64,000 bases of DNA from Omnitrophica WOR_2 bacterium RIFOXYA2_FULL_38_17 (GCA_001805965.1 MHHG01000073.1:18080-82079); one strand, 5' to 3'. Positions 18,108-55,277 are shown, counted from the first letter of the stretch. Numbers and translations are program-made. Notes: a model not told the origin generated them from the sequence alone.

Positions 18108-18511
18108 TTTTCTTTCGTTTCCTTTAATGCTTCAGATGCCAATCTATCAGCATCTTTGTTCTTTTCTCTAGGAACATGACTGATCTTAAAACTCTTAAAA
18201 CCCCGGGCCAATGACTTGACCTGGTCATTAAGAAACTTTAGTTTCGCATTTTTAATTTTATAAGCTCCGATAACTTGCTTATAAACTAATTCACTGTCTG
18301 TGTAGACATTGACGTCATCGGCTCTTAACACAAGCAATTCCTGCAATCCAAAAACAAGTGCCGAATACTCAGCGATATTATTTGTCGCTTCTCCAATTGG
18401 CTTTGATATTTCGCCAACACACTTTCCATCACAATTTATAACAACACCTATCGCAGCCTCCCCAGGATTACCTTTACACGCGCCATCAGTATATATTTCA
18501 AATTTTTTCAT
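18041..18511 (-). CDS. rnhA: Ribonuclease HI
   Basis: YTDGACKGNPGEAAIGVV (catalytic Asp box), ISHVPREKNKDADRLA. The non-conserved ~25-aa C-terminal tail (KQTDMVASLFEYSEEESPSSKG) is encoded by the first ~67 nt of rnpB. Confidence 0.85.
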   Translation of the reverse strand: MKKFEIYTDGACKGNPGEAAIGVVINCDGKCVGEISKPIGEATNNIAEYSALVFGLQELLVLRADDVNVYTDSELVYKQVIGAYKIKNAKLKFLNDQVKSLARGFKSFKISHVPREKNKDADRLASEALKETKEKQTDMVASLFEYSEEESPSSKG

Positions 18512-19353: not shown

Positions 19354-19427
19354 TGGGCCCGCAGGGACTTGAACCCCGGACCAATTGATTATGAGTCAAC
19401 TGCTCTAACCGGCTGAGCTACGGGCCC
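19354..19427 (-). tRNA. tRNA with anticodon CAT (elongator Met or Ile2-lysidine type); CCA not encoded
   Basis: The reverse complement GGGCCCGTAGCTCAGCCGGTTAGAGCAGTTGACTCATAATCAATTGGTCCGGGGTTCAAGTCCCTGCGGGCCCA folds as a cloverleaf: 7-bp acceptor, GCTC/GAGC D-stem, anticodon loop CTCATAA, GTTCAAGTCC T-arm. G1:C72 is paired, so it is not an initiator. Confidence 0.85.
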
Positions 19428-34582: not shown

Positions 34583-37531
34583 TCAGGCACTGTTTCGAAT
34601 CAACTCTTTACGATTATTCCCAAGCAACATCAGAATGTTCGACACAGGAGTAACATTTATTATAACAGGTACGAAGCCTTCAATATTCAGGTCATAAATT
34701 GGCTGTTCATCCAGCGGAAGAGGGATACCCGCGCTATTTCTTTTTATCTGAAGGTCAAGCATGTCAGAATTAAAATCAATACCACCGACATTCTCCGATC
34801 CTTTTTCATTTGTAACGCCACCTTCATTAACTGTTGATGTTTCATTGTTCAATAATACTGCCTTTTCGATCCCTTCAAGGTCACCGGCAGCAATCTGATC
34901 AAAATACGCATCGATCTTAGCCAAATGCTTATCAATGTTCCCTTGCGCGTCCTGTTTCAGCTTAATAAGTGTTGCCAACAAATATCCGGCTTCCTCACGT
35001 TCAAAATCATCTTCGCTCATTCCCTCATAAACAGCTCTTACGACCTCAATATCGGAAGAGAGATCTCTTAATTCACCCGAAAAACCTTTTTCTTCAACCA
35101 AGTCAATCCTTTGGGAAAGATCTAAAACTCTGCGCTGGATATCATCTGTTCTCCCGATCTCATAAGAAGATTGAAGCCTAACAACATTTTCGATATTTTT
35201 CATGACATCTTGCCCTTCTGCCCCTAAACCTTCTGCCATCTTCCTAGCAGTTTCTATCGCATAATTCGCTTCCCCTTTGACAAAGTCACTTGACCTTTCA
35301 AAAATACGTCGCAATGTAAAAGGCTCAGCAGGATCACTAAAATTTGTTACCACGAGTCCATACTTTTTGAAGATCTCCCCATCTGAATACTCCACATTCT
35401 CCCCTTCAGCCTTAAAATCAACCATGCGTCTTGCTGGAGTAATGCGGTCCAAAGCATATCCAAAAGATATCAGCTCACTTGCCTCAATCTTTGAAATATT
35501 AAGCAAATTAACCACATAATCACGCACCTTGATCCTTAAAGAGTCTGGATTGGTTATTTTTCCTTCACTATTAATATCTGTAATAAGAAGCACCGGCAAT
35601 AGATTGTTAGGTATGTTTATCCCTATATTTGGCAATACAATCGTAGCCACAAAATCAATTGGATTTCCGGGATGATGAGCAGCAATGATCAAAGCAAGAC
35701 CCAAAGCCTCATCAGGCTCAAAGCCCGCCTCCTCCAGACGTTCTATTGTAGCTATCATGCTCAAAGTACCATGCATAATAACTTTTTCCACCAGAGGATT
35801 ACCCTTATTTGCCAGCATAAAAGCATAGATAGCCTCAGCCCTTTCTACTGCGTCTTCATGGGAAAGCCCTAAAATCCGTTCCCCTATCTTAATCCACAAG
35901 TCAATAAACTTGATTTTAAATGCAGGGTCTGAAACATCCATTGCATAGGCAAGGTCATGGGTTTCGGCAAATAGTTCGCCAAAGGACGCCATTTCATCAG
36001 ATATCAAACCACGCTCATGAAGGGATTCAATAAGAGCCCTGTGGGAATTAATATGGGCAGCCACTGGCGGCGAATAATTCTCAGGCCTTCTGTTGGATGC
36101 AATTGCAGCCGCATTTAATAATTTATCTTTATATGCTACGAGAACCGGCCTGCCCTTACCCTGCAGGTCCTCAAGCCTTACTTCCGGATTATCAATTAAA
36201 CCAAGCATTGACCGGTCCGGCCCTTTCAAAGAAACAGGATTTTCGGCTAAATATTTTTCATTATTAGGATTCGCTTCCAACATATTTACATCAACTTCAA
36301 ATTTCTTGGAAAGCATTGAACTATCGCCAAGATTCTTCTCAACATATGCTTTTTGTTCAGATCCGAGGTTCTCAACTGGGCCCTTAACCGTCTCAATAAT
36401 TTCCGGAAGAGTTTCACCGAACTGATTCTGAGAAATAAAACCTCCGGAAAAATATTTCCTTGGGATGATCTCCTGGCTTATCGGATCATAATCTTCCTTT
36501 ATATAATTAAAAACCCCCTGCTTAAAAGCCTCAATATATTGGCGATAGATCTTTTTGCTCACATCTTTATCCTCGAGATCTATACCTTTCACCTTATTCT
36601 TATCAACATAGACCTGGCCCATCAAAGATTGTTTTAAGTTGCTCTTATACCAAGCGGCAAGTATCATGGAATTATACATCTGCCTTAACTTAATAAATGT
36701 TCTGCCATGATTTATCTCGCGCTCGATCTCAGGGATAAGGATCTCTTTAATGACCTCTTTGATCTCATCCAACTGCTGTGGATTCTCAGCCCTCTCTTCT
36801 TCAGCGCCTAAAATATCTGACATTTCAGAATCTTCAAATGTGCTCCTAAAAGCCATATAGTCTGATTCAAGCATAACCTTAAGATTGCTTTCAAGAACAA
36901 AAACCATTCCTTGGTCCTCATATAACACGGCTTTATCCGGAACGATCCAAACCTTATTAAATGTATCCATGGGTATATCCGTGATCCCGTATCTCTCATA
37001 AGCTATCTTATAAACTCTTGCCCAGAATTCTTCTCCCAATTCATCCTCCGGATACATAAGGGATGCTGTTAACTGCTTCAACAAATAATCCTGAGCCAGA
37101 AGGTCCCTTCCCATTTCCGTATGCCCAAAATTCTCTGGAATGATCCTGTTATTTTCATAAGGGGATAAATTGACCCACATATCTTCTTCAGGAGTAGTCA
37201 ATGATGCCAAGAAATACTTTATAAGCTTTTCAGATTCATATTTAAGCTCTTCATCCTCAATTTGAGAATCTCCGGTATCAATTATGAATTTAAAGCGTAA
37301 TGGATTTTCAGGAAATGTTTGTATGCCTTTAATTACAGCAGGGTAAAAAGCTGGGGTTACTGTTACTATTGTTCCTACTTGCGGCAGCGAGAAAATACTT
37401 TGAGCATAAACATTTGCCGGCAATATAAAATTAGAGGTCACAAATGCTAAAACTATTATAAAAACCGATAATTTGTATACAAAATTGTCAGATTTTTTTC
37501 TTAAGTAAATTGCCATCTCATACCTCAACAT
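34583..37531 (-). CDS. Large exported multidomain protein (982 aa); paralog of 51738..55277 over the N-terminal ~330-aa domain and the C-terminal ~70-aa module
   Basis: Sec-type signal peptide with VYA/Q cleavage site. The N-terminal domain is highly similar to that of the 1179-aa protein. The central region has His/Asp motifs (AAHINSHRA...ETHDLAY...IMHG...AAHHPG) suggesting an HD-like hydrolase. The C-terminal conserved module is NVGGIDFN...IKR...IP.P...GFVPVIINVTPV followed by a short charged tail. Confidence 0.7.
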   Translation of the reverse strand: MLRYEMAIYLRKKSDNFVYKLSVFIIVLAFVTSNFILPANVYAQSIFSLPQVGTIVTVTPAFYPAVIKGIQTFPENPLRFKFIIDTGDSQIEDEELKYESEKLIKYFLASLTTPEEDMWVNLSPYENNRIIPENFGHTEMGRDLLAQDYLLKQLTASLMYPEDELGEEFWARVYKIAYERYGITDIPMDTFNKVWIVPDKAVLYEDQGMVFVLESNLKVMLESDYMAFRSTFEDSEMSDILGAEEERAENPQQLDEIKEVIKEILIPEIEREINHGRTFIKLRQMYNSMILAAWYKSNLKQSLMGQVYVDKNKVKGIDLEDKDVSKKIYRQYIEAFKQGVFNYIKEDYDPISQEIIPRKYFSGGFISQNQFGETLPEIIETVKGPVENLGSEQKAYVEKNLGDSSMLSKKFEVDVNMLEANPNNEKYLAENPVSLKGPDRSMLGLIDNPEVRLEDLQGKGRPVLVAYKDKLLNAAAIASNRRPENYSPPVAAHINSHRALIESLHERGLISDEMASFGELFAETHDLAYAMDVSDPAFKIKFIDLWIKIGERILGLSHEDAVERAEAIYAFMLANKGNPLVEKVIMHGTLSMIATIERLEEAGFEPDEALGLALIIAAHHPGNPIDFVATIVLPNIGINIPNNLLPVLLITDINSEGKITNPDSLRIKVRDYVVNLLNISKIEASELISFGYALDRITPARRMVDFKAEGENVEYSDGEIFKKYGLVVTNFSDPAEPFTLRRIFERSSDFVKGEANYAIETARKMAEGLGAEGQDVMKNIENVVRLQSSYEIGRTDDIQRRVLDLSQRIDLVEEKGFSGELRDLSSDIEVVRAVYEGMSEDDFEREEAGYLLATLIKLKQDAQGNIDKHLAKIDAYFDQIAAGDLEGIEKAVLLNNETSTVNEGGVTNEKGSENVGGIDFNSDMLDLQIKRNSAGIPLPLDEQPIYDLNIEGFVPVIINVTPVSNILMLLGNNRKELIRNSA

Positions 37532-37685: not shown

Positions 37686-38903
37686 CTATTTAATAGAAAC
37701 GTCTGTTTTCTTTGGAACAATAACAATACCGGATGTCGTAAGAACAAAACGTTTTTTATCAAGCTCCAGATCGTACCCTATCTCAGTATTCGCAGGAATT
37801 ATAACCTCTTTGTCAATAATAGCATTCCTGACCTTGGCATTCTCGCCTATCTGAACGCCTTCCATTATTATTGAATTCTTGACGTGGGCACCTTCTTTGA
37901 TTGTTACATTTGGAGAAAGGATTGAATTATCAACCTCCCCGCCTTCAATTATACATCCTCCTGATATCATTGAATTATATATAGCCCCTGAACCAGAAGG
38001 TTTTGTGATCATTCTGATCGGAGGATACTGCTCGTGGTAAGTCCTAACCCTCCAATCTTCATCGTAAAGGTCAAAATCAGAATTTGGCTTCAAAAGGTCC
38101 ATATTTGCCTGATAATATGCATCTCTTGTCCCAATATCCCTCCAATACACAGGCTTGCCTCCGGCATTTTGCGCAAAATCATAAACATACACTTTCTTTT
38201 TGCTTTTCAACATCTGTGGAATAATATTCTTTCCAAAATCATGGCTTGAAGTAACATTTTTAGAATCAATTTCCAGTTCTTTTAACAGAACATCCTTTTT
38301 AAAAAGATATATCCCCATTGAAGCAAATATCTCGGATTTCTTTGAAGGTATTACTTTTGGGTGCACAGGCTTTTCCTGAAATCCAAGGACCCGGTTCTCA
38401 GCATTAACTTCAACAACACCAAAATCCTTAGACATTTTTTTGGGCATATTAACACAGGCAACAGTAACATCAGCATCCTTTTCTTCATGGAACTTAACCA
38501 TATCCCTATAGTTCATCTTATAAATATGGTCACCGGCAAGGATCAAAACCCTGTCCGGAGCACAATCATTGATCGCATATATATTCTGATAAATAGCGTC
38601 AGCCGTTCCTTTATACCAATCAGAGCTTATCCTTTGCTGTGCAGGGATAACATCAATAAACTCGCCTAATTGGCTTGAGAATACATTCCATCCCGCCAAC
38701 AAATGTTTTTGCAGGGAAAAAGATTTATACTGGGTAAGAACATAGATCCTCCTTAACCCGGAGTTAACACAATTACTCAAAGTATAATCAATGATCCTAT
38801 ATATCCCGGCAAATGGGACAGCAGGCTTTGCCCGGTCCCTGGTTAAGGGATCAAGCCTTTCACCACGCCCACCGGCTAAAATAAAAGTTAAGGTTTTACG
38901 CAT
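37686..38903 (-). CDS. glgC: Glucose-1-phosphate adenylyltransferase
   Basis: FILAGGRGERLDPLTRDRAKPAVPFAGIYRIIDYTLSNCVNSG N-terminal signature and C-terminal left-handed beta-helix. 405 aa. Confidence 0.9.
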   Translation of the reverse strand: MRKTLTFILAGGRGERLDPLTRDRAKPAVPFAGIYRIIDYTLSNCVNSGLRRIYVLTQYKSFSLQKHLLAGWNVFSSQLGEFIDVIPAQQRISSDWYKGTADAIYQNIYAINDCAPDRVLILAGDHIYKMNYRDMVKFHEEKDADVTVACVNMPKKMSKDFGVVEVNAENRVLGFQEKPVHPKVIPSKKSEIFASMGIYLFKKDVLLKELEIDSKNVTSSHDFGKNIIPQMLKSKKKVYVYDFAQNAGGKPVYWRDIGTRDAYYQANMDLLKPNSDFDLYDEDWRVRTYHEQYPPIRMITKPSGSGAIYNSMISGGCIIEGGEVDNSILSPNVTIKEGAHVKNSIIMEGVQIGENAKVRNAIIDKEVIIPANTEIGYDLELDKKRFVLTTSGIVIVPKKTDVSIK

Positions 38904-38959: not shown

Positions 38960-41299
38960 TTAATTTATATCAACTCCCTGCCCAATCAATTTCAAATTCT
39001 CCAGCTCTTTTTTTACCGCTTCATCTTTCGGGTCTTGATTCAGGGCCTTTTGCAATTCTAACTTTGCATTTTCAATATCCCCTAAAGCTTTATAAGATAA
39101 CCCGATATTTTTGTATGCCTCAGCAAGATTTTTACCCGTGTTTAAAACCACTTTATAAGTATTCAAAGCTTCTTTTAATGCACCCTGCTCATAACAAATA
39201 TCCCCTATCTTTAAAATATCGATGGAACTGTTACGGTCCATGTTATGTGCTATCTTTAAATATTTATAAGAATCCGTGTATTGTTTGTTCTGCGCATAAG
39301 TCTTCGAAAGAAGAAAATACCACTTCGGGTCTTTTGGCCACAATTTTATCATTTCCTCATATTGCTTTATTGCCCCCTCATACTGTTTCAAGTCCACGTA
39401 TACTAAAGCAAAATTCTCCCTGAAACTTTGATCATTAGGAGAGAATATTGCCGCTTTCCTTAAATACTTAAAAGCAGCCTCAAATTTCTTATTCTTTGCA
39501 TATATTTTTCCGGTCAGGGCCAAAGCATCTGCATAATCAGGAGTGATCTCTACCGCCCTGTTAACTTCCTTCAACGCTGCCTTTCTGAAGCCTAAAGTGT
39601 CAAGCGTATAAGCCTTATAATAATTCCTGTATCCGTTCACTCTATCGTTAGCCAATTTAAAGAAATCAATATCTTCCACTTGCCACCTGCTTAGATCCAA
39701 CTCGTGTTTTTCTATAACCGCCCTGTTCTGAGGCACATCCTTTAAGAAGATAACCGCGTCATAATTCAAATAAACAAGCTTCCAATCCTTATGGTCATAT
39801 AAATAATTCAATAATTTAGGACGTATATGCTGTTTGACAGACCCTAAAAATACACCAGTTAAATTATACTGTTTTACGACCTTTTCAAAGGCCTCAAGGT
39901 CTTCACCTTTCCATATCCTGTGGTATTCCTTAAAAAACGCCCCACCATACACTTCAGTTCTTCCATCAATAAAAACCTTAATATCAGGAAAACATCTGCC
40001 AAGAAGATATGCCCCGGAATTAAAGTCATTAAAGAAATTCCCTTTTACTTTATTTTCAACAAGAAAATCAGCGCCCTTATCAGAAAAACTTCTCAGCCCT
40101 ATCCCTCCAAACTCACTCTTCCTTTCATATTTATCAAAATCATAATAACCTCTTGGCGCAACCCCGGCACAATATTGAAATATCCACGCTAAAAGAAGAA
40201 GGTTGCAAAATATCATTGTTATATACTGAAATTTCTTCTGGGTAAATCTCAGCGGAATAATTTCTTCAAATGAAAGACTGAACATATTCGTCACTAAAAC
40301 CAAATATGCAGCAAAGGCAAAATACACTGTGTTTCTTAACGCCTTGAGTGAGAAGATCAAAAAAATAATCCAAAACAGCAATGCGCTAACATCTATTCTT
40401 TTGCGGTTCAAGAAAAATGAGATGGCGGAAAAAAGCATTATGATCTTATAGAATATAAATTGACCGCCGATAAAAAGAGTATCACTTGTAATAGGTTTGG
40501 CAAGCTCCTGGATATAATCAAAGAAAACTTTATTCTCTCCCCCCAGAGAAAAGAACACGCCTATAGGATAAAAGGCTCCTTTAATAAATCCCGGATTTAT
40601 AAGACAAGCCAATAGCACAAAAACAAATATCTTCTTTAATCTGCCGAACTCATCATCAGTTAACCTTCCTGACTCATTCCACTCATATGGTAAAGGCACA
40701 TGCCTCTTTAACAGTTCTGCTGTGATTCCCAACAGAACAAATAACGGCCCGAAGAAAAAATAACCGTGCATGTTCGACCAAAGGACCTGAGCAATGAATA
40801 AAGTAAATACCGACCATCTCTTATCGATATGCAAAGCAAGAACATAAATATAGTAAACAAAGAAAAACAGGCTAAAAATATCAGGCCTTATCGTAAAGCG
40901 CTGCTGAAAAGTTAAATATGCAAGCAGAAGGAAAAATGTCGAGAATAACTGCTTATCCCTGTTGTACCCTATCAACACAAGCATGCCTAAGGTCAAGCCG
41001 GTAACTACGATCTGCATTTTTAAAAGCCCATCCGGCCCGAAATTATTGAAGAGATTATAAAGTATGACCTGAAAGAGCCATTCATGGTTCACCCAGGGTG
41101 CGCCGGCAATTGAACATGAAAGAAAATCCACGTTAGGAACATAACCGTGCTGGACAATATATTTTCCTGTCGCTAAATGCAGCCAAAGATCAAGGTCCTT
41201 AATCTCTATATTCGCGACATAAACTAAAAGCCCGAATAACGCGCCTACCGGCAATAAGCCTGCAATAAAGTGGGCTTTCTTCAATAATGAATCTCTCAT
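38960..41299 (-). CDS. Multi-TM (GT-C-like) membrane protein with central soluble domain and C-terminal TPR repeats (779 aa)
   Basis: About 11 predicted TM helices in the N-terminal 380 aa, with a first-loop acidic motif EIKDLDLW and NHEWLFQ. C-terminal TPR units (ALALTGKIYAKNKKFEAA, YKNIGLSYKALGD). Confidence 0.7.
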   Translation of the reverse strand: MRDSLLKKAHFIAGLLPVGALFGLLVYVANIEIKDLDLWLHLATGKYIVQHGYVPNVDFLSCSIAGAPWVNHEWLFQVILYNLFNNFGPDGLLKMQIVVTGLTLGMLVLIGYNRDKQLFSTFFLLLAYLTFQQRFTIRPDIFSLFFFVYYIYVLALHIDKRWSVFTLFIAQVLWSNMHGYFFFGPLFVLLGITAELLKRHVPLPYEWNESGRLTDDEFGRLKKIFVFVLLACLINPGFIKGAFYPIGVFFSLGGENKVFFDYIQELAKPITSDTLFIGGQFIFYKIIMLFSAISFFLNRKRIDVSALLFWIIFLIFSLKALRNTVYFAFAAYLVLVTNMFSLSFEEIIPLRFTQKKFQYITMIFCNLLLLAWIFQYCAGVAPRGYYDFDKYERKSEFGGIGLRSFSDKGADFLVENKVKGNFFNDFNSGAYLLGRCFPDIKVFIDGRTEVYGGAFFKEYHRIWKGEDLEAFEKVVKQYNLTGVFLGSVKQHIRPKLLNYLYDHKDWKLVYLNYDAVIFLKDVPQNRAVIEKHELDLSRWQVEDIDFFKLANDRVNGYRNYYKAYTLDTLGFRKAALKEVNRAVEITPDYADALALTGKIYAKNKKFEAAFKYLRKAAIFSPNDQSFRENFALVYVDLKQYEGAIKQYEEMIKLWPKDPKWYFLLSKTYAQNKQYTDSYKYLKIAHNMDRNSSIDILKIGDICYEQGALKEALNTYKVVLNTGKNLAEAYKNIGLSYKALGDIENAKLELQKALNQDPKDEAVKKELENLKLIGQGVDIN

Positions 41300-41341: not shown

Positions 41342-43366
41342 TTATTTTCCAAGCGCAGAAAGCTTGCCTTCTAATTCAACAACCTCAGGAATGCTCCTTA
41401 GCTTCCCCTGAACCATTGATAATTGCTGCCTGGATTTATCAATCTCTCCGAGGTTAAAATATGTAAGCGCCAGTAAATATCTGGTCTCAGGGTCTTTCTG
41501 GTCTAAAAGTTTTGCTACTCTGAGTTTCTTGAACGCGTTTTCAAAATCACCGTTCTCAATATCAGCTTTTCCCAAGATCACATACAAATGTGAATAATAA
41601 GGAAAATACTTCAGGGCTTCTAACGCCTCTTCTTTAGCTTTCTCAACTTCACCCATATTTAACAGAGCATATGCTCTATTGGCATACCTGTAAGGAGTTA
41701 TGTTCTTCAGTCCCAACTTTGCGATATCAAGCCTTTGAGGCTCATAATCCTTAAGATCGATCCTGAATTTATCTATTACCTGCCGATTTTTTTCAACGTC
41801 CTTAAGAAAGACCACTGCATCATAATCGAAATATACCAATACCCATTCGGGTGATCTATAAATATGTTTTACTATCTTTGCATAGGAAGGGTCATAAAGT
41901 AAATTAAGAAAGGCGCCTGTCAGATCGAATTTCTTCTGAAATCTATCAAAGGTCTCGCTATCACCCTCAATCGTCTTTCTATACAGCTGAAAGAACGTTG
42001 AACCATATACTTCAGTTCTTCCATCTATAAAGACCTTAATATTAGGGAACGTGCGCCCGATCAAATAAGCCCCTGAATTAAAATCATTAAAGATCCCGCC
42101 TTTAATATTATTCTCAACAATAAAATCTACTGCTTTCTCGGGAAAATTATGTTTTGAAACTCCTCCATATTCGCTCTTTCGTTCATACTTATCAAAATCA
42201 AAATACCCCTGCAAAGAAAATGCATCAATAGTTTTGATCATATGATTGATCATCAGCAGATTTATCAAGATCATGCAAACCAGTTTCATACGTTTACCAG
42301 AAACCACAGGCGGTATCAATTTATCATAATCAACATACTGCATATTGATGACCACAACAAAAAAAGCGACAAAGCTAAAGAAAACCATATTTCTGACAGC
42401 ATTTAGCGAAAAAAACAAAAATATCAACCATACAAACAACACGCTCAGGTCTATCTTTTTTATATTGAACAAAAAGCTTAAAGCAGAAATAACGATCAAT
42501 ATCTTGTAGTAAGGATATTCACCCGGCGAAAAAATCGTATTAAGGCTGATAGGCTTTGCTAGCTCAGTGATGTGTTCAAAAAATACTTTTGAATCCCCTG
42601 ATAAAGAGAACATAACCTTTAAAGGATAGATGAAGCCCACGATAGAATGCGGATTGACAAGGCACGATGCTGTTACTACCCAAAAAGCCAACTTAATATT
42701 TCCATATTCCTCATTATCAAGACGGCCTATATTGTTCCATTCAAAACATAGCGGGACTTTTCTCTTTATTATCTCAGACAGGATTCCTATCAAAAGCACG
42801 GCTGGCCCAAGGATGAAATACCCGTGAATATTACACCAGGCAATTTGAATGATAGCCAAAAGCCATATTGTGCTTTTCTTTTGCATTCTCGATGACAAAA
42901 AAAAGAAAAATACAGATAGAAATAAAAGGCTGAATATCTCGGGGCGGATCGTCATTCTGTTCTGAGCAACCATCAGGACCAAATACAATAAGAGCACGGG
43001 CAAAGTCAGCCGCTCGATATCAAAAACAGCAAAGAGAAAGACAAAAAATATCAAAGTAAACAAAACCACCCTTAGCATTATCAAGCCTTCAATGCCGCCA
43101 AGCTTATAAACATTGAACACTGTTATCTGGAACAGCCACTCGTGGTTACTCCACGACTTATCCTTTAATGTAGATGACAGAATGTCAACATTTGGGACTG
43201 ACCCGGTTTCGCTGATATATTTACCCACGCCTAAATGCAGCCAAAGGTCATGGTCCTTGATCTCAAGGTTTGCAGAGAATATTATCAGTCCGAACAGGAC
43301 AAGAAGCGCTATCAAGCCTGTTGAAGTATTTATTTTTTCATAAAACCATTCAGACATTTTATACAT
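41342..43366 (-). CDS. Multi-TM (GT-C-like) membrane protein with C-terminal TPR repeats; tandem paralog of 38960..41299
   Basis: Shares LEIKDHDLWLHLGVGKY...NHEWLFQ and GYFDFDKYERKSEYGG...IKVFIDGRTEVYG with its neighbour. Start moved to ATG 43366 (MYKMSEW). The ORF-track start at 43375 is a TTG inside a GC-rich hairpin repeat. Confidence 0.7.
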   Translation of the reverse strand: MYKMSEWFYEKINTSTGLIALLVLFGLIIFSANLEIKDHDLWLHLGVGKYISETGSVPNVDILSSTLKDKSWSNHEWLFQITVFNVYKLGGIEGLIMLRVVLFTLIFFVFLFAVFDIERLTLPVLLLYLVLMVAQNRMTIRPEIFSLLFLSVFFFFLSSRMQKKSTIWLLAIIQIAWCNIHGYFILGPAVLLIGILSEIIKRKVPLCFEWNNIGRLDNEEYGNIKLAFWVVTASCLVNPHSIVGFIYPLKVMFSLSGDSKVFFEHITELAKPISLNTIFSPGEYPYYKILIVISALSFLFNIKKIDLSVLFVWLIFLFFSLNAVRNMVFFSFVAFFVVVINMQYVDYDKLIPPVVSGKRMKLVCMILINLLMINHMIKTIDAFSLQGYFDFDKYERKSEYGGVSKHNFPEKAVDFIVENNIKGGIFNDFNSGAYLIGRTFPNIKVFIDGRTEVYGSTFFQLYRKTIEGDSETFDRFQKKFDLTGAFLNLLYDPSYAKIVKHIYRSPEWVLVYFDYDAVVFLKDVEKNRQVIDKFRIDLKDYEPQRLDIAKLGLKNITPYRYANRAYALLNMGEVEKAKEEALEALKYFPYYSHLYVILGKADIENGDFENAFKKLRVAKLLDQKDPETRYLLALTYFNLGEIDKSRQQLSMVQGKLRSIPEVVELEGKLSALGK

Positions 43367-43367
43367 A

Positions 43368-43390
43368 GGGGCCAAGTCTCGACTTGCCCC
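43368..43390. repeat. GC-rich hairpin repeat GGGGCCAAGTCTCGACTTGCCCC (copy 1 of 3)
   Basis: Imperfect palindrome with a CAAGTC/GACTTG stem and GGGG/CCCC clamp, between the oppF stop and the next gene start. Copies 2 and 3 are near-identical at 49138 and 49250. Confidence 0.5.
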
Positions 43391-47382: not shown

Positions 47383-49131
47383 TTACCTGTATTCTTCCCT
47401 AATTATCAATTCATCCAAATTATGGAACAATCCGCCAAACTTGGTCGGGTTTAGATTTTCAAACTTATTCCTTACCGAATATAACCGAGATGATAATACT
47501 GTATAGATCATAGGAAGCTTTTGTGAAATGATCCTCTGGAACTCATCATACAACTGCTTCCTTTTATTCTCATCCAATTCCTGCACTCCTTGATTGAATA
47601 TCTCATCTATCCTGGCTTCCCAGTCTGTTGCCGGTGATTCCTGACGAGGGTACCACATATGAAGGTTTCCTTTGGAATCCCAGACATTCTTTCCAAAATG
47701 AGGCTCTATGCCTCCTGTTAGCCCTAATACCACCGCCTCCCACTCATAAGTGGATGTCAATTTACTCACTATATTATTAAACTCTAATACGAGAAAGTTC
47801 ACCTTCATTCCAATAGCCTGCAGATCGGAACGAATTATAGAAGCTATTAAAACCCTCGGATCACCCATACCGCCGTTTGTATACAGATTAAATTCAAGAA
47901 CATTTCCTTTTGTATCCTCTAAATAACCATCACCATCTCTATCAATAAATCCCTGGGATCTCAAAATGGCTCTTGCCTTATCAAGATCATAATCATATTC
48001 CGTAACATCAGGATTATAATAAAATCCCGCGCTGGGGCTCATTGAGGAATATTGGGGATAGCCGAATCCGTTCATTACCATTTCAACGATCCTCTGTTTA
48101 TCAATAGCATGCGCGACAGCTTTCCTAAACTCAACGTTGGTAAACCATTCCAGTTTATAATCTTCAACATACGGTTTATTAGTTTGAGCATTTGTCCCTC
48201 TGTTCTGGTTAAAGAAAATAAAATTTGAACCAAATGCGGGCCCAATGTCCAAGACTTCATAATCGCCCCTCTTTTCATTAGGCTTCACAAGAGGATAATC
48301 CTGCGCACGTATTGCTACAGCGTCAAGCTCACCATCAAGGAACTTTAACAACTCAACATCCTGGCTCTGCACGATCAAATAAACGACCTTTTCAATGTAT
48401 GGAAGTCGGTCACCAGAATCCGATCTTTTCCAGTAATTCGGATTTCTTCTATACATGAGCCTTTGCCCAGGCTTATAATCAGTCAAAATATATGCACCCG
48501 TGCCGATGATCTCTTTCGGATCCGTATCTATACCCCATGTAAAATTGAATTTTCCGGCATCAACAGCGTTTTTAAGCCTATGCTTTGGCAGGATCGACTG
48601 CCCCATGCTTCTTAAAAAGGGCGCAAACTTAACAGGCAGGGTAAATCTGACCGTCAGGTCATCCACTTTTTCCACGTTGAATTTATTTCCGTCAACTGAG
48701 AAAATATCGCTGGCCGAGTTAGGGACTGTTTCATTGTATATCAGGTCGTTGAATGTGAAGACAACATCATCCGCGGTGAATTGCTTTCCGTCAAACCAAA
48801 GAACATCATCACGAAGATGAAAGGTCCAAATCAGCCCGTCACTTGATACATCCCAGCTTTGCGCCAAGTTAGGCTCAACCTCGCCTGTAATGCCATTGGT
48901 CCTGGTTAAACCTTCGAACAACATATTAGTTACATCCGTCGTTGAGGTTTCCTTGGCTAGAATATCATTGAATGACTTTGGATCGCTCGTTGTTGACAGG
49001 ACAAGAGTCCCGCCATATTTATCATTAGGAACATCAGCGAAAACATTTGAAGAGATAATTGAACCAAGAATGGAAAAGAATGCGAACAAGCAGATCGAAG
49101 AGAGAAAATTCTTTTTCTTATTTTTGTGCAT
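47383..49131 (-). CDS. oppA: Oligopeptide ABC transporter substrate-binding protein (SBP family 5)
   Basis: Start set at MHKNKKKNFLSSICLFAFFSILGSIISSNVFA (signal peptide) at 49131. The ORF-track start at 49248 reads through an upstream hairpin-repeat region. SBP_bac_5 fold motifs throughout. Confidence 0.8.
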   Translation of the reverse strand: MHKNKKKNFLSSICLFAFFSILGSIISSNVFADVPNDKYGGTLVLSTTSDPKSFNDILAKETSTTDVTNMLFEGLTRTNGITGEVEPNLAQSWDVSSDGLIWTFHLRDDVLWFDGKQFTADDVVFTFNDLIYNETVPNSASDIFSVDGNKFNVEKVDDLTVRFTLPVKFAPFLRSMGQSILPKHRLKNAVDAGKFNFTWGIDTDPKEIIGTGAYILTDYKPGQRLMYRRNPNYWKRSDSGDRLPYIEKVVYLIVQSQDVELLKFLDGELDAVAIRAQDYPLVKPNEKRGDYEVLDIGPAFGSNFIFFNQNRGTNAQTNKPYVEDYKLEWFTNVEFRKAVAHAIDKQRIVEMVMNGFGYPQYSSMSPSAGFYYNPDVTEYDYDLDKARAILRSQGFIDRDGDGYLEDTKGNVLEFNLYTNGGMGDPRVLIASIIRSDLQAIGMKVNFLVLEFNNIVSKLTSTYEWEAVVLGLTGGIEPHFGKNVWDSKGNLHMWYPRQESPATDWEARIDEIFNQGVQELDENKRKQLYDEFQRIISQKLPMIYTVLSSRLYSVRNKFENLNPTKFGGLFHNLDELIIREEYR

Positions 49132-49137
49132 AGTATA

Positions 49138-49274
49138 GGGGTCAAGTCTCGACTTGACTACACCTTTATTATTTTCGTAAAATAAAAGTACACATGAGCG
49201 CAAACAACAAAACACTTCATTGCGAGGAATAAAAAAAGCATCTTGCATAGGGAAGCAAGTCGAGACTTGCCCCC
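49138..49274. repeat. Pair of inverted GC-rich hairpin repeats (copies 2 and 3) flanking a 91-bp AT-rich segment in the secG-oppA spacer
   Basis: GGGGTCAAGTCTCGACTTGAC at 49138..49158 and its reverse-complement form GGGAAGCAAGTCGAGACTTGCCCCC at 49250..49274. Same family as 43368..43390. Confidence 0.5.
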
Positions 49275-51737: not shown

Positions 51738-54700
51738 CTAATTTAAGCTAACTTCAAGAACCTCTTTAGATCCGGTATTTTTTCCAAACAAGATCGGCAG
51801 GATCGTTACTGGAGTGATATTGATTATTACAGGTGTGAATCCGCGTATATCGAGGTTTTCAATATCCTGAAATTCAATTGGAAACGGGATATTATGATCA
51901 TCCCGCTTTATCTTAAAATTAATATTCAAAGGATTCAAATCGATACCACCAACATTCTGTTCCCTTGTGGCTAAATTTTCATCATCGGTCTGATCTATCC
52001 TGTTTAAACCGAGAATAGCAGCATCTGCATATGTAAATTCAGCATTAAGCTGTAATATTTCTTGAGGATTAAGGTCTTCTTTCGCAAGCTGGTAAATAAC
52101 CTTATGGTTCTTTACTCCTTCTTTCCACCCGACATCTTCATTCATAGCATTTTCAACGATTTGTTTCCAAAGCCCTGAATTTTCATTATAAACCCTGTTA
52201 GCCCGCATTATTGTATTGAAAAATTCCTGCGCATTATGATCACGTCGATAATTATCTTCCCATGGATTTGCAAATGTCCTATCTGCCCCGTAAAATCCAA
52301 AACCTGTCTGCTGTGGTGACCCTTCGCCAATTACACTGTCTATCAATCCACCTGTCCATCTTACTATCGGGATAGCCCCGTATAACAAAGCTTTTAATTG
52401 CCCAAGACCAGACGGCTCAAAATCAGAAGGCATCAAAAGAGCATCAATACCAGAAAGAAGCATTCTTTCTATATCCACGTCAAAAGGAGAATAAACAACA
52501 TTTATGTCAATTGATACATCATCTGAAGTCTCTTGCGCCAATCTTTTGATCTCATCAACTATCCATTTCTCATTATCTTCTCCATCCCCTAAAACCACCA
52601 GGTCAATCGGAAGCTTGGTTTCTTTTGCCTTTTGAATCACCTGCGGCAGAATATCCATTTGTTTCTGCTTTACCAGGCGGGCATTCGTACCTAAAAGCAT
52701 TCTTTGAGAACCGACCTCTAAATTTCCATAATAAGATCCATCATTCTTCTTATTTGAAAAATATTCCTGAATAGATCTTTTATTTTGCGATCGCGCTTCT
52801 AACACACTGTCAATTCCATCATTTATCGAATAATTTACATGAATTTTGTTATCCGTTTTTGGATTCCAAAGCTCAACGCTTACGCCATTCATAATTCCTA
52901 AAAAATACTTTCCCGCTGCTTTAAGACGTGTATCTGAAGTAAAACCAAAAGGCGTATTAATAACCTGCTGTGCATATGTAGGGCTCACGGTAGTTGCATA
53001 ATTACCTGGGCCTAAAATGCCGACTGCACCGGCAAGAAGCTGGATCTCCCTTTTGTACTCTTTATTAGGGATATAAAGCAACTCTTCAATTTCCGGAAAT
53101 TCTTGCAAGCCCAATTCTTCAGCCAGATCAGTATTGTAATCTCCAGGATAACCAATATTGTTTATTGCAAATACACTGGCAACATCCTTAAAATCGTCCT
53201 TAAATATGCTTCTCATATAAAGCGAGACCAAGGCTGTATGATGATCATGAGCTTCAACAACATCCAGTTGCTCGTTTAGTCCTAGCTTTTTCAATAGCAT
53301 TAAGCCAGCTTTAGATAAAATAACCGACTCGTAAAACTCATTATCTTTATTCTGATAAAGATCATTGAACAAACTTACATCATCGACATTTAAAGCATAA
53401 ACTTCCACGCCATCAATAATTGTTTTCTGCGCAGTAACAGTGACATTCGCTCTTTTTTTAAACCCAACTATTTCTTCAAAACCCTCAACATCCGTCCAAA
53501 TGTATTTATCATAGTTCAATTGTTTTGATCTTCCCTTAAACCTGGGGACAACAACAACCGGCCTGGTTGATTCATCAGTTGATTTTGCTAACTCAACAAA
53601 TTTTTCATAAACAGCATCACCAAGTCCGGCCCTCTTGGCAACAGCAGAGAACTCCATTGAGATTGCGGCTGCGCGCCCTTCAAAACGAGGAGCAACTCTG
53701 ACAATACCATCTGTTTCCACATATTGTCTTTCACCGCGAGGATCATTAATCCACATCATGCTGCCATCATTTTGCTCAATCGCAAATGTGTAGGCAAATT
53801 CATAAGCAGCATCTGTTTCTATTCTTAATTTAACCTGATATTCATTTTTACCATCTCTATACCCCAGCTTTTCAACAACCCCTTTTTTTGAAACCCATGC
53901 CCCACCCAGATTAGAATGAAGAATTATACTTTCAGAAATATCTTTATCTTCACCTTCAATGCTTATTTTTAACGAAAATTCCTCACCTGAGAGAGCATTT
54001 ATATTCTTGGTAACATTCGGGATATAAATATTACCCAGCATAGAAGTGTCTACTGGATCTTTTTTATCATTTACGGGGCTAAGATCATCATTTAAGATCA
54101 CCTTTGTATTATCAAGATTGGAACTGTTAAGCTCCCCCCTAATGCCAGCAAAATATTCTTCAGGTATCCTCTGACGATCCTTTGTTACTTCAGTAATACG
54201 TTCATAATCATTCCCGTTCCACCCTCCGCTAAAATATTTTCTAGGTATGATCTGCTGAGTTGAAGGGTCATATTCTTCTTTAATATAGTTAAAAACACCA
54301 TTCTTAAAACTTTCAACATACTGGTTGTAAATCTTTTCTTTTATTGTTTTATCTTCGATATCTATTCCATCAACCTTTGCCTTATCGACATAAACTTTAC
54401 CCAACAGACTTTCCTTTAAGGTCTTTTTATACCAAGTCGCAAGGATCAATGAATTTGTAATTTGTCTTAAAAGGGCGAAATGCTTGCCGTGATTTACTTC
54501 TTTTTCTAGCTCCGGGATAATAATTTCCCTGATTATTGATTTAGCATTCTCCTGTTTATCTATCGCTAACAAATCCTCATCTGAAGACAATCGTTCTTTC
54601 TGATTATTTTGCTGTGATAAATAATCTTCCTCTAACATGACCTTCAAATGGCTTTTGACCAAATATGCGACATTACCTTCCTCGTAAACAAGCGCCTCAT

Positions 54701-55277
54701 CCGGAACGATCCATACTTTGTTAAAAGTATCAATGGGAATATCCTCAGTGCCATACTTTTCGTAAGCCAGATCATATATCCTGTCCCAAAAACTACGGCC
54801 TATTTTTTCATCAGGATTCAGCAAGGACGCCGTTATCTGTTTAAGCAGGTAATCCTGAGCAAGAAGGTCGCGGCCCATCTCGGTATAACTGAATTTTTCC
54901 GGAATAATACGATCATTTTCATACGGGGATAAATTAACCCACATCTGATCTTCGGGAATAGTTAAAGATGCAAGAAAATACTTGATCAATTTATTATATT
55001 TTACCTGCTTTTCATCATCATCAAGGACCTCATCACCCTTGCTAATAATAAAATTAAACTCTAACGGGTTACTGGGATTGATCTCAACTGCCTTTATAGA
55101 GGCGGGTTCAAAAAGATCACTCAATCCAACAAGGGTGCCAACACTTGGAAGCCCTAATAAACTTTGAGCTTGATAAAGTGCAACCTGAGCATATGCCGCA
55201 GGTAAAATTTGAACAGATAAAAACGCAAATACTATCAAAACTGATACAAATTTTCTAAAATGTGTTGATATCTTCAT
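51738..55277 (-). CDS. Large exported multidomain protein (1179 aa): shared N-terminal domain, putative carbohydrate-binding middle region, glycogen/starch-synthase-like GT5 domain and conserved C-terminal module
   Basis: Sec signal peptide with AYA/Q cleavage site. N-terminal ~330 aa paralogous to 34583..37531 (WVNLSPYENxRIIPE, TEMGRDLLAQDYLLKQ, DTFNKVWIVPD, IIPRKYFSGG). The central region matches GlgA: EFSAVAKRAGLGDA (KTGGL box variant), EAHDHHTAL, TTVSPTYAQQV, GIMNGVSVELWNPKTD, SDFEPSGLGQLKALLYGAIPIVRWTGGLIDSV. C-terminal NVGGIDLN...IKR..IPFP...GFTPVIINITPV module plus a charged tail. Confidence 0.75.
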   Translation of the reverse strand: MKISTHFRKFVSVLIVFAFLSVQILPAAYAQVALYQAQSLLGLPSVGTLVGLSDLFEPASIKAVEINPSNPLEFNFIISKGDEVLDDDEKQVKYNKLIKYFLASLTIPEDQMWVNLSPYENDRIIPEKFSYTEMGRDLLAQDYLLKQITASLLNPDEKIGRSFWDRIYDLAYEKYGTEDIPIDTFNKVWIVPDEALVYEEGNVAYLVKSHLKVMLEEDYLSQQNNQKERLSSDEDLLAIDKQENAKSIIREIIIPELEKEVNHGKHFALLRQITNSLILATWYKKTLKESLLGKVYVDKAKVDGIDIEDKTIKEKIYNQYVESFKNGVFNYIKEEYDPSTQQIIPRKYFSGGWNGNDYERITEVTKDRQRIPEEYFAGIRGELNSSNLDNTKVILNDDLSPVNDKKDPVDTSMLGNIYIPNVTKNINALSGEEFSLKISIEGEDKDISESIILHSNLGGAWVSKKGVVEKLGYRDGKNEYQVKLRIETDAAYEFAYTFAIEQNDGSMMWINDPRGERQYVETDGIVRVAPRFEGRAAAISMEFSAVAKRAGLGDAVYEKFVELAKSTDESTRPVVVVPRFKGRSKQLNYDKYIWTDVEGFEEIVGFKKRANVTVTAQKTIIDGVEVYALNVDDVSLFNDLYQNKDNEFYESVILSKAGLMLLKKLGLNEQLDVVEAHDHHTALVSLYMRSIFKDDFKDVASVFAINNIGYPGDYNTDLAEELGLQEFPEIEELLYIPNKEYKREIQLLAGAVGILGPGNYATTVSPTYAQQVINTPFGFTSDTRLKAAGKYFLGIMNGVSVELWNPKTDNKIHVNYSINDGIDSVLEARSQNKRSIQEYFSNKKNDGSYYGNLEVGSQRMLLGTNARLVKQKQMDILPQVIQKAKETKLPIDLVVLGDGEDNEKWIVDEIKRLAQETSDDVSIDINVVYSPFDVDIERMLLSGIDALLMPSDFEPSGLGQLKALLYGAIPIVRWTGGLIDSVIGEGSPQQTGFGFYGADRTFANPWEDNYRRDHNAQEFFNTIMRANRVYNENSGLWKQIVENAMNEDVGWKEGVKNHKVIYQLAKEDLNPQEILQLNAEFTYADAAILGLNRIDQTDDENLATREQNVGGIDLNPLNINFKIKRDDHNIPFPIEFQDIENLDIRGFTPVIINITPVTILPILFGKNTGSKEVLEVSLN

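What the first reader, a model, noticed from the sequence alone, without database searches (positions are those of the whole stretch)
34583..34800. Candidate C-terminal sorting/anchoring signal of a new type (GF-x-PVIIN-x-TPV + hydrophobic stretch + charged tail)
Both large exported paralogs end with a conserved GxDxN...IKR...IPxP motif region. This leads into a proline-punctuated hydrophobic segment (GFVPVIINVTPVSNILMLLG / GFTPVIINITPVTILPILFG) and a short Lys/Arg/Glu tail at the very C-terminus. The tripartite layout (signature motif, hydrophobic span, charged tail) is that of sortase/exosortase/archaeosortase-type sorting signals. The motif does not match the LPXTG, PEP-CTERM, GlyGly-CTERM or PGF-CTERM families I know. 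It could equally be a terminal beta-strand secretion or attachment domain.
Basis: inference. Interest (0 to 1): 0.7.

Follow-up and report, generated by a model that had tools for sequence, protein, structure and literature searches.

The report
Shared end-cap of exported Omnitrophota enzymes
The flagged segment is a real, undescribed C-terminal module that, always together with one fixed N-terminal domain, brackets thousands of different exported enzyme proteins in the uncultured phylum Omnitrophota; it is not a sortase-type membrane anchor signal.

Summary
Two paralogs, at 34583-37531(-) and 51738-55277(-), end in the same ~60-residue module: GGIDxN..LxLQIKR..G.PxP...Q.I....I.GF.PVIIN.TPV...L..LG plus a short tail.

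The sortase/exosortase reading does not hold.
- The hydrophobic stretch carries about three prolines and is modelled as a beta-strand.
- Across the family the tail varies in length and is mostly acidic.
- No known sorting-signal model matches.

Between these constant ends sit unrelated passengers. They include whole glycogen synthase (here), phosphoglucomutase, hexokinase, PGK, enolase, response regulators and radical-SAM domains.

The family has ten times less cysteine than neighbouring genes. The window's other exported proteins show the same depletion, so the whole protein probably leaves the cytoplasm.

Best reading: a new C-terminal docking or secretion domain that works with the N-domain. 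The mechanism and any partner machinery are unknown. All identifiable carriers are Omnitrophota.

The parts
34583..37531 (-). protA: 982-aa family member (signal peptide, N-domain, helical passenger without Pfam match, C-module). It has no cysteine.
   Evidence: An identical protein (P0195/P0315) is named 'hypothetical protein' in Omnitrophica WOR_2 MAGs.
37403..37531 (-). protA Sec-type signal peptide, aa 1-43: basic n-region, hydrophobic core, VYA|Q cleavage-like site. Some databases call the start at Met6.
   Evidence: Sequence reading. Family statistics: a hydrophobic N-terminus in 86% of members, net positive charge before it in 91%, and a small-x-small|Q/E site (mostly (A/V/S/G)xA|Q) in ~80%.
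36257..37402 (-). protA conserved N-domain, aa 44 to ~425. It includes a semi-conserved extra strand at aa 410-419 (FEVDVNMLEA).
34796..34885 (-). protA disordered, variable linker before the module (aa 883-912).
   Evidence: AF2 pLDDT <50 for 883-912. High column entropy.
34619..34795 (-). protA C-module core, aa 913-971: ENVGGIDFNSDMLDLQIKRNSAGIPLPLDEQPIYDLNIEGFVPVIINVTPVSNILMLLG. This is the finding.
   Evidence: AF2 strands at 917-919, 926-931 and 953-963; block-mean pLDDT 88 (residues 921-930) and 87 (951-960). Invariant or near-invariant G916, G917, I918, G952, P955, I957, P962, G971.
34586..34618 (-). protA variable C-terminal tail (NNRKELIRNSA). The stop codon is 34583-34585.
51738..55277 (-). 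protB: 1179-aa family member whose passenger is a complete glycogen/starch synthase. It has no cysteine.
   Evidence: Some NCBI records name it 'glycogen/starch synthase'.
55188..55277 (-). protB signal peptide, aa 1-30 (AYA|Q).
   Evidence: Sequence reading.
54063..55187 (-). protB N-domain, aa 31 to ~405.
52080..53666 (-). protB GlgA passenger, aa 538-1066.
   Evidence: PF08323 at 2.5e-25 and TIGR02095 at 2.2e-80, covering profile positions 5-475 of 477. Recognisable motif variants: KRAGL548, HDHH677, NGVSVELWNP797, RLVKQK867, PSDFEPSGL950.
51783..51956 (-). protB C-module core, aa 1108-1165.
51741..51782 (-). protB tail KNTGSKEVLEVSLN, ending in the recurrent hydrophobic-S-x-L-N terminus.

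Best explanation
The flagged segment encodes a ~60-residue, beta-structured C-terminal domain plus a variable tail. It is one of the two constant ends of a very large protein family that, where carriers can be identified, belongs to Omnitrophota.

Every complete member has this layout:
1. a Sec-type signal peptide;
2. a conserved ~380-aa N-domain;
3. a freely exchangeable passenger of 265-4,500 aa, often an entire enzyme of a normally cytoplasmic type (here glycogen synthase in protB);
4. a disordered linker;
5. the C-module;
6. a tail.

Proposed mechanism:
1. The Sec system exports the protein and signal peptidase I cleaves the signal peptide (inferred from sequence).
2. The whole mature, cysteine-free chain is extracytoplasmic (inferred from cysteine exclusion, which it shares with the window's other exported proteins).
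3. The C-module is neither a membrane span nor a sortase substrate. It is a docking or secretion domain. Its fully hydrophobic strand GF.PVIIN.TPV is too exposed to be buried by the module's own two short strands, so it probably inserts into a partner surface. The partner could be the N-domain of the same or a neighbouring molecule, or an unidentified envelope receptor or translocon (inferred).
4. In this way the N-domain and C-module together act as a common chassis that delivers or displays diverse cargo on or beyond the outer envelope. In logic this resembles a T9SS C-terminal domain or the paired ends of LapA-type adhesins, but it is unrelated in sequence.

The anatomy and distribution are shown. 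The extracytoplasmic location is strongly inferred. The docking or secretion role, and the partner, are hypothesis.
For: Distribution and position:
- 6,162 clusters carry the module, always at the extreme C-terminus, in proteins of 80-4,969 aa (shorter ones are mostly fragments).
- In a GTDB species-representative scan, 66 loci have the module at the end of long ORFs. All identifiable carriers are Omnitrophota; one locus sits in a Desulfuromonadaceae-named bin.

Obligate pairing with the N-domain:
- Nearly all full-length module proteins start with the N-domain at E 1e-113 to 1e-142.
- Only 3 of 159 N-domain proteins lack the module, all three on contigs of 2.8-4.8 kb.
- None of the 142 'C-only' proteins has a signal peptide. 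One that was checked is the downstream half of a gene split by a single in-frame TAG.

Passenger diversity:
- Only 89 of 11,026 passenger pairs share a segment of >=100 aa; 149 proteins give 97 passenger clusters.
- Pfam content includes GlgA, PGM, UDPGP, hexokinase, PGK, enolase, FBPase, PGI, response-regulator receiver, GGDEF, sigma-54 activator and radical SAM.

Export:
- The N-termini look like signal peptides.
- The family has 0.096% Cys against 0.98% in 43 other ORFs of the window. protA and protB have none. Several of the remaining cysteines lie in the signal peptide. Other residues are unchanged.
- The window's recognisable exported proteins (OppA-like binding protein, two lipoproteins, LepB) are also Cys-free in their mature parts.
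- Low cysteine content is a known trait of proteins that cross the outer membrane unfolded (PMC8151025).

Not a membrane span:
- Three prolines in the hydrophobic window and a median hydropathy of 1.55.
- Modelled as a beta-strand with pLDDT 87.
- Acidic, variable tails.

Weak hints of N-C coupling:
- 31 of the top 60 covarying N x C column pairs fall in N residues 280-339, which are 18% of the columns.
- That region and residues 111-140 lose AF2 confidence when everything after residue 372 is removed.

Precedents:
- Chlamydia, a related PVC bacterium, secretes GlgA and phosphoglucomutase (PMC4829429 and PMC9251005).
- Omnitrophota giant proteins carry the same Pfam repertoire together with signal peptides (10.64898/2026.06.07.730766).
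Against: - No receptor, translocon or processing enzyme was identified. No gene is conserved next to family members.
- Model coordinates and PAE were not available, so the module's contacts are unknown.
- The AF2 confidence drop in the N-only model could equally come from losing the conserved linker strand at 410-419.
- The covariation test is not corrected for phylogeny and rests on 163 sequences.
- Many passengers need ATP, GTP, SAM or an Fe-S cluster, none of which is available in a normal periplasm. Their site of action is therefore unexplained unless they reach another cell's cytoplasm.
- The signal peptide was judged by heuristics, not by a trained predictor.
- Cysteine exclusion shows an extracytoplasmic fate but does not distinguish periplasm, cell surface and secretion.
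Confidence: 0.5

Rival explanations
1. Split carrier domain. The N-domain and the C-module are two pieces of one globular scaffold, or they polymerise head to tail by strand donation. The passenger is in effect a giant loop insertion. On this view the module is a structural element, not a signal.
For: - Co-occurrence is strict in both directions.
- The all-hydrophobic 11-residue strand needs a partner sheet or groove.
- Covariation concentrates on N residues 280-339, and AF2 confidence falls there in the N-only model.
Against: - A variable, disordered linker of ~30 residues precedes the module. This is typical of autonomous terminal domains.
- No protein with the N-domain directly followed by the C-module was seen; the shortest passenger is 265 aa.
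- The confidence drop has an alternative cause, the missing strand at 410-419.
- Contacts could not be inspected.
Confidence: 0.25
2. T1SS-like arrangement, as in LapA/RTX adhesins. The C-module would be an uncleaved C-terminal secretion signal beginning with a single RTX-like GGxxD element. The N-domain would be a retention or plug module that keeps the protein at the cell surface.
For: - Both ends are constant and the middle is variable.
- An acidic, variable extreme C-terminus.
- An invariant GGID motif.
- Cysteine-poor cargo.
- Cytoplasmic-type enzymes would be exported without passing through the periplasm.
- C39 peptidase domains of the T1SS type are reported in Omnitrophota giant proteins (10.1101/2023.11.21.568195).
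Against: - Family members carry a classical Sec-type signal peptide with a small-x-small|Q/E site (mostly (A/V/S/G)xA|Q), which T1SS substrates lack.
- There is only one GG-x-x-D element and no nonapeptide repeats.
- No RTX or HlyA-type model matches.
- No T1SS ABC/MFP/TolC genes lie in the window or next to other family genes.
Confidence: 0.1
3. Membrane tail-anchor. The proline-rich hydrophobic stretch inserts into the inner or outer membrane, possibly as an oligomeric beta-barrel like the ~70-aa anchor of trimeric autotransporters, and tethers the protein.
For: - The hydropathy of the best 19-residue window reaches 1.8 in protA and is >=1.6 in 41% of members.
- The passenger is Sec-exported and Cys-poor, as in type 5 secretion.
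- The module has a similar size to a YadA-type anchor.
Against: - Three prolines in the window and only ~17 hydrophobic residues.
- The strands are uniformly hydrophobic rather than alternating.
- There is no terminal aromatic beta-signal; instead an acidic tail of roughly 1-85 residues follows.
- No autotransporter or YadA-anchor Pfam match.
Confidence: 0.08
4. One reading: a sortase-, exosortase- or archaeosortase-type tripartite sorting signal that a dedicated transpeptidase cleaves.
For: - Strictly C-terminal position, a conserved signature followed by a hydrophobic stretch, and many paralogs per genome.
- A second mini-motif at the very end could be a recognition site.
Against: - No hit to any LPXTG, PEP-CTERM, GlyGly-CTERM or other NCBIfam sorting model at E<=1.
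- The hydrophobic stretch is proline-rich and modelled as a strand.
- The tail is acidic and of variable length, not a basic cluster.
- The conserved region spans ~60 residues rather than a short motif.
- No candidate enzyme lies nearby.
Confidence: 0.04

Closest known systems
T9SS C-terminal domain (Por_Secre_tail, PF18962 / TIGR04183) of Bacteroidota
   Same: A folded, beta-rich domain of ~60-90 residues at the extreme C-terminus of Sec-exported, otherwise unrelated cargo proteins. It is present in many paralogs per genome and sits behind a flexible linker.
   Different: No sequence match: Pfam and NCBIfam find nothing on the module. The one PF18962 hit in the family is internal to a passenger (P0181 residues 1068-1139). 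Only three strands are predicted instead of a seven-strand sandwich. It is obligatorily paired with a constant N-domain, which T9SS cargo lacks. No T9SS genes were seen.
LapA / MpIBP-type giant RTX adhesins (T1SS substrate with an N-terminal retention module)
   Same: Constant N-terminal and C-terminal functional ends bracket a variable middle. The C-terminal end is uncleaved, acidic and loosely structured. The proteins are cysteine-poor.
   Different: Those proteins have no Sec signal peptide and carry many RTX nonapeptide repeats. Here there is a Sec-type signal peptide and a single GGID element. The ends are not homologous.
Type 5 secretion (classical and trimeric autotransporters, TpsA proteins)
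   Same: A Sec signal, a long cysteine-poor passenger and a conserved terminal element needed for outer-membrane transit (PMC8151025).
   Different: No beta-barrel, YadA-anchor or TPS domain was detected. The module is not amphipathic and is followed by a tail. The N-domain is alpha/beta, not a beta-helix.
Sortase/exosortase-class C-terminal sorting signals (LPXTG, PEP-CTERM, GlyGly-CTERM, PGF-CTERM)
   Same: C-terminal position, many paralogs, and a signature followed by hydrophobic residues.
   Different: No transmembrane helix, no basic cluster, no matching model and no cognate enzyme.
Secreted glycogen-metabolism enzymes of Chlamydia (GlgA, and the phosphoglucomutase CT295)
   Same: A bacterium of the PVC superphylum exports otherwise cytoplasmic GlgA and phosphoglucomutase to act outside its own cytoplasm (PMC4829429 and PMC9251005). 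The same enzymes are passengers here.
   Different: Chlamydia uses N-terminal type 3 secretion signals on otherwise ordinary enzymes. Here the enzymes are embedded between a Sec signal plus N-domain and the C-module.
Omnitrophota giant proteins ('Archaeovorins' and the long-protein catalogue)
   Same: Same phylum and the same Pfam repertoire: starch synthase, GT1, PGM, receiver, radical SAM, ROK, HATPase, GNAT, HAD and HEAT. Signal peptides are common. The module occurs in proteins of up to 4,969 aa.
   Different: Term searches of those papers turned up no mention of a shared N-domain or C-terminal module. Whether the proteins above 10,000 aa carry these ends was not tested.

Membership tests
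Sortase LPXTG signal | LPXTG-like pentapeptide directly before the hydrophobic segment | tested here: not met
   No LPXTG in either tail. No NCBIfam or Pfam hit.
Sortase / exosortase / rhombosortase signals in general | A transmembrane helix of ~20 residues followed by a cluster of basic residues at the C-terminus | tested here: not met
   Median of 3 prolines in the best 19-residue window and median hydropathy 1.55. Modelled as a beta-strand. Tails are net negative in 145 of 190 sequences; roughly 1-85 residues follow the hydrophobic stretch (18-104 counted from PVIIN to the end).
PEP-CTERM / GlyGly-CTERM / PGF-CTERM and related NCBIfam sorting domains | A match to the curated HMM of the signal | tested here: not met
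   0 families at E<=1 for both isolated modules and both full proteins.
Sortase / exosortase systems | A cognate processing enzyme encoded in the genome, often nearby | tested here: inconclusive
   None among 46 ORFs scanned against Pfam in the window, including protA and protB. No neighbour is conserved in 66 loci. The rest of the genome could not be searched.
T9SS C-terminal domain | A match to PF18962 / TIGR04183 at the C-terminus | tested here: not met
   No hit on protA or protB. The only family hit is internal to a passenger.
T9SS C-terminal domain | Extreme C-terminal folded beta domain on Sec-exported, heterogeneous cargo | tested here: met
   This is a likeness in how it works, not evidence of homology.
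Autotransporters (T5a / T5c) | A C-terminal beta-barrel or YadA-type anchor domain ending in an aromatic beta-signal | tested here: not met
   No Pfam match. Only three short strands. An acidic tail follows.
Autotransporters / T5SS | A Sec signal and a cysteine-poor passenger | tested here: met
   Literature trait in PMC8151025.
T1SS RTX substrates (LapA-like) | No N-terminal Sec signal; tandem GGxGxDxUx repeats upstream of the C-terminal signal | tested here: not met
   A Sec-like signal in ~86-91% of members. A single GGID element.
Glycogen/starch synthase GlgA (protB passenger only) | GT5 catalytic domain plus GT1 domain, full length, with the catalytic motifs | tested here: met
   TIGR02095 covers profile positions 5-475 of 477 at E 2.2e-80, although below the curated cut-off (270.6 against 328.45 bits). 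PF08323 is above its cut-off. Motif variants are present. Enzyme activity was not tested.

The most novel reading that the evidence does not exclude
Omnitrophota export, on one common two-ended chassis, dozens of complete glycolytic, glycogen, nucleotide-sugar, signalling and radical-SAM enzymes per genome. These proteins are effectors delivered into the cytoplasm of host or prey cells, or into an unrecognised ATP-containing compartment. The C-module would be the translocation signal of a secretion pathway that has not been described, and the N-domain would be a new fold that serves as its adaptor.
Probability: 0.25. Interest if true: 0.92.

Novelty: new variant of a known kind. Interest (0 to 1): 0.8.

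Why it matters
Omnitrophota are uncultured, ultra-small, probably host-dependent bacteria whose biology is inferred almost wholly from genomes. This work defines a family of thousands of proteins, with many copies per genome and two in this window.

A signal peptide, a constant N-domain of unknown fold and a constant C-module bracket swappable enzymes that normally work only in a cytoplasm. The tenfold cysteine depletion argues that these enzymes really leave the cell's cytoplasm.

Three consequences follow:
- Genome-based metabolic reconstructions of the phylum may be counting exported enzymes as housekeeping ones.
- The two ends give a concrete handle (HMMs) for cataloguing the phylum's exported proteins and for finding the machinery that recognises them.
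- The question of how these bacteria exploit their hosts becomes testable by proteomics on existing enrichment cultures.

Tried and rejected
Searches that found nothing:
- Pfam, NCBIfam and PHROGs on protA, protB and the isolated modules. Only GlgA in protB was found.
- phmmer and hmmsearch against PDB sequences. Only coiled-coil noise in passenger columns.
- Foldseek with the full model against PDB. Nothing at E<=1e-3.
- Literature searches for the motif and for Omnitrophota protein ends found no description.

- afdb50 was not available.
- The search for related loci rejected the module alignment as too variable, so I used a degenerate DNA pattern. About half of its 118 matches were chance hits in unrelated taxa and were filtered out with the module HMM.
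- The first word-index search returned only fragments of <=131 aa, which was misleading until the exhaustive profile search.

Analyses with negative or ambiguous results:
- Neighbour clustering produced only antisense shadow ORFs.
- Plain MI over all columns gave phylogenetic noise. Restricting it to conserved core columns gave a weak regional signal.
- I first took the pLDDT difference between the full-length and N-only models as evidence that the C-module docks on the N-domain. I then found that a conserved linker strand at 410-419 had also been removed, so I downgraded it.

Readings considered and rejected:
- A T9SS C-terminal domain: P0181's PF18962 hit is internal to the passenger.
- Genuine stand-alone 'C-only' proteins: they are fragments or split genes.
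Full report
**What is at the coordinates**

The segment 34583-34800 is the 3' end of a minus-strand ORF, 34583..37531, which encodes 982 aa (protA). Its last 70 residues read NVGGIDFNSDMLDLQIKRNSAGIPLPLDEQPIYDLNIEGFVPVIINVTPVSNILMLLGNNRKELIRNSA.

A second ORF, 51738..55277(-), encodes 1179 aa (protB) and ends in a 45%-identical version of the same stretch. The two proteins also share their first ~430 residues at 50% identity (E 4e-128), but their middles are unrelated.
- protB's middle is a complete glycogen/starch synthase: PF08323 at 2.5e-25, and TIGR02095 at 2.2e-80 over profile positions 5-475 of 477.
- protA's middle is helical and matches nothing.

A six-frame scan finds no third copy in the window.

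**The module is a large family feature, always C-terminal**

A word-index search with the module returned only fragments of <=131 aa from Omnitrophica. An exhaustive profile search of 1.84 billion representatives found 6,162 clusters at E<=1e-3 and 3,541 at E<=1e-10. In proteins of 80 to 4,969 aa (the shorter ones mostly fragments), the match always ended within a few dozen residues of the C-terminus.

The consensus is GGIDxNP..LDLQIKRDG.G.PLP...QP.....I.GF.PVIIN.TPV.NLPLLLG. G916, G917, I918, G952, P955, I957, P962 and G971 (protA numbering) are invariant or nearly so. A variable linker precedes the module, and AlphaFold models that linker as disordered.

**It is not a sortase-type tripartite signal**
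- The hydrophobic stretch has a median of three prolines in its best 19-residue window and a median Kyte-Doolittle score of 1.55.
- In the AlphaFold model of protA it is an 11-residue beta-strand (953-963, pLDDT ~87). Two short strands precede it, at 917-919 and 926-931.
- From PVIIN to the protein's end there are 18 to 104 residues, which leaves a tail of roughly 1-85 residues. The tail is net negative in 145 of 190 sequences.
- About half of the tails carry a hydrophobic-S-x(1,2)-hydrophobic motif, usually within two residues of the C-terminus. 57 of 367 end in LN, as protB does with ...EVSLN.
- NCBIfam, which holds the curated LPXTG, PEP-CTERM, GlyGly-CTERM and related models, gives no hit at E<=1 even for the isolated modules. 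Pfam gives none either.
- No sortase, exosortase, rhombosortase or CPBP gene is among the 46 window ORFs scanned.

**The module is obligatorily paired with a conserved N-terminal unit**

Almost every full-length protein found through the C-module begins with the same ~360-residue N-domain, at phmmer E 1e-113 to 1e-142.

The reverse also holds. A search with full-length protA gave 4,042 hits, and only 3 of the 159 retrieved proteins with the N-domain lack the module. All three sit on contigs of 2.8-4.8 kb.

None of the 142 'C-only' proteins has a hydrophobic N-terminus. I examined one of them, P0190 (1708 aa). It is the downstream half of a gene whose upstream 771-aa half carries the N-domain; the two halves are in the same frame and are separated by a single TAG.

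**The middle is freely exchangeable**

Passengers range from 265 to 4,509 aa, with a median of 855. Only 89 of 11,026 passenger pairs share a homologous segment of >=100 aa, and 149 proteins give 97 passenger clusters.

Precomputed and re-run Pfam assignments show whole enzymes and regulatory domains of normally cytoplasmic types: starch synthase, phosphoglucomutase, UDP-glucose pyrophosphorylase, hexokinase, phosphoglycerate kinase, enolase, FBPase, PGI, ROK, NDK, receiver domains, GGDEF, sigma-54 activator, HATPase, GNAT, HAD, HEAT and radical SAM. The radical-SAM members keep the CxxxCxxC motif.

Many paralogs occur per genome. At least nine from one hydrothermal-vent MAG are among the top 120 hits. 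Tandem runs of two or three family genes are common.

All identifiable carriers are Omnitrophota (Omnitrophota MAGs, Ca. Aceula, Ca. Zapsychrus). The others are loosely labelled MAGs, plus one locus in a Desulfuromonadaceae-named bin. The window itself matches Omnitrophica WOR_2 MAGs, where protA is annotated as hypothetical and protB as hypothetical or 'glycogen/starch synthase'.

**Where the proteins go**

The N-termini look like Sec signal peptides. There is a hydrophobic core in 86% of members, net positive charge before it in 91%, and a small-x-small|Q/E site (mostly (A/V/S/G)xA|Q) in about 80%. 144 of 155 members have no further transmembrane-like segment. A signal peptidase I gene lies in the window at 7266-7877.

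The strongest evidence is composition.
- The family contains 224 cysteines in 234,525 residues (0.096%). The 43 other ORFs of the window contain 0.98%. All other amino acids are similar between the two sets.
- protA and protB have no cysteine. 58 of 163 members have none and 133 have two or fewer.
- In the members I inspected, several of the remaining cysteines lie in the signal peptide.
- The stand-alone PGK, TIM and GlgC in the window have 2-4 cysteines each. The two PGK-fusion members have none.
- The window's recognisable exported proteins follow the same rule in their mature parts. These are an OppA-like binding protein, two lipoproteins whose only cysteine is the lipobox one, and LepB.

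By the organism's own compositional rule, then, the whole mature chain belongs to the extracytoplasmic class, enzymes included. Low cysteine content is also a recognised trait of proteins that cross the outer membrane unfolded (PMC8151025).

**How the module most likely works**

A 60-residue unit with two short strands cannot bury an 11-residue strand made almost entirely of V, I, P and T. I therefore infer that the strand docks into a partner. The partner could be the N-domain of the same or a neighbouring molecule, or an envelope receptor or translocon.

Two weak observations point to the N-domain.
- Covariation between conserved C-module columns and N-domain columns concentrates in N residues 280-339: 31 of the top 60 pairs for 18% of the columns.
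- That region and residues 111-140 lose AlphaFold confidence when everything after residue 372 is removed.

Neither observation is decisive. The truncation also removed the conserved strand at 410-419. The covariation is not corrected for phylogeny. I had no access to model coordinates or PAE.

I commit to this reading: the module is a C-terminal docking or secretion domain that acts together with the N-domain as a common chassis for exported cargo. My confidence is about 0.5. The main rival, that the N-domain and C-module form one split scaffold or polymerise, stands at about 0.25.

**Open problem**

Many passengers need ATP, GTP, SAM or an Fe-S cluster. A normal periplasm supplies none of these. 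Either the enzymes act in another cell's cytoplasm or in an unrecognised compartment, or they have non-catalytic roles.

There are precedents. Chlamydia, in the same PVC superphylum, secretes GlgA and phosphoglucomutase to run glycogen metabolism outside its own cytoplasm (PMC4829429 and PMC9251005). Omnitrophota are thought to be host-dependent or predatory (PMC10066038; 10.1101/2023.11.21.568195). Their giant proteins carry the same Pfam repertoire together with signal peptides (10.64898/2026.06.07.730766). Term searches of those papers turned up no mention of the shared ends.

**Comparison and novelty**

In logic, the module is closest to a T9SS C-terminal domain, and the pair of ends is closest to LapA-type adhesins. 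The defining sequence and structure features of both were tested and not met. The same is true for autotransporter anchors and for sortase-class signals.

I rate it a new variant of a known kind, namely a C-terminal export or attachment domain. It has an unusual obligatory N-terminal partner of unknown fold and an unprecedented cargo set.

Noticed in passing
window-wide; for example 47383-49248, 3613-4119, 4128-4844, 7266-7877: The recognisable exported proteins of this organism are free of cysteine in their mature parts: an OppA-like binding protein, two lipoproteins whose only cysteine is the lipobox one, and LepB. Cytoplasmic ORFs average ~1% Cys. This is a genome-wide 'cysteine exclusion' rule that could be used to predict localisation in Omnitrophota.
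   Followed up: partly
L121 3767-3769: A family gene in an Omnitrophota MAG is split into a 771-aa ORF carrying the N-domain and a 1708-aa ORF carrying the C-module by a single in-frame TAG. This could be a sequencing error, a pseudogene or programmed read-through; I did not resolve which.
   Followed up: partly
family-wide; window 51741-51758 (protB ...EVSLN): A second mini-motif lies at the very C-terminus. About half of the tails have hydrophobic-S-x(1,2)-hydrophobic, usually within two residues of the end, often as E-E-(I/V)-S-x-L-N-COOH (57 of 367 end in LN). protB has it and protA does not. It might be a C-terminus-recognition site of the PDZ or tail-specific-protease kind.
   Followed up: partly
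window 36274-36303 (protA aa 410-419); family-wide: A semi-conserved extra strand, hydrophobic-x-V-x-hydrophobic-x-L-hydrophobic-(E/D)-x-G-P, lies 30-55 residues after the YFSGG end of the N-domain and is modelled at pLDDT ~90. The conserved N-terminal unit therefore extends further than the sequence alignment suggests.
   Followed up: partly
window 38960-41299 and 41342-43375 (-): Two tandem paralogous proteins of 779 and 677 aa lie directly upstream of glgC and protA. Each has a multi-span N-terminal membrane region without any Pfam match and C-terminal TPR repeats. Function unknown. They are not conserved next to other family members.
   Followed up: partly
window 37686-38903 (-): An ORF of 405 aa whose sequence reads like glucose-1-phosphate adenylyltransferase (GlgC) sits directly upstream of protA, and stand-alone PGK and TIM genes sit directly downstream of protB. 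The GlgC assignment rests on reading the translation; this ORF was not scanned against Pfam. Exported family members lie next to ordinary cytoplasmic sugar-metabolism genes.
   Followed up: no
L072, L025 (three in a row); L022, L031, L046, L050, L075, L066 (pairs): Family genes often occur in head-to-tail tandem arrays in Omnitrophota genomes.
   Followed up: partly
window 17592-18110 (-) and 19354-19427 (-): A bacterial class A RNase P RNA (130.5 bits) is ~519 nt long against a 367-position model, so it probably carries insertions. It overlaps the mechanically listed ORF 18041-18511. A tRNA-Met(CAT) lies nearby.
   Followed up: no
window 58928-60706 (-): A 592-aa ORF has no Pfam match and 8 cysteines. 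It is embedded in a polysaccharide gene cluster with GDP-mannose dehydratase, an epimerase, a Wzy_C ligase-like protein and a Bac_transf sugar transferase.
   Followed up: no
P0025 (126 aa, on a 593-bp contig): An acyl-CoA dehydrogenase N-terminal segment runs straight into the C-module at a shared '...EEYGGID...' junction. It is probably a chimeric assembly or a recombination at the GGID motif.
   Followed up: no
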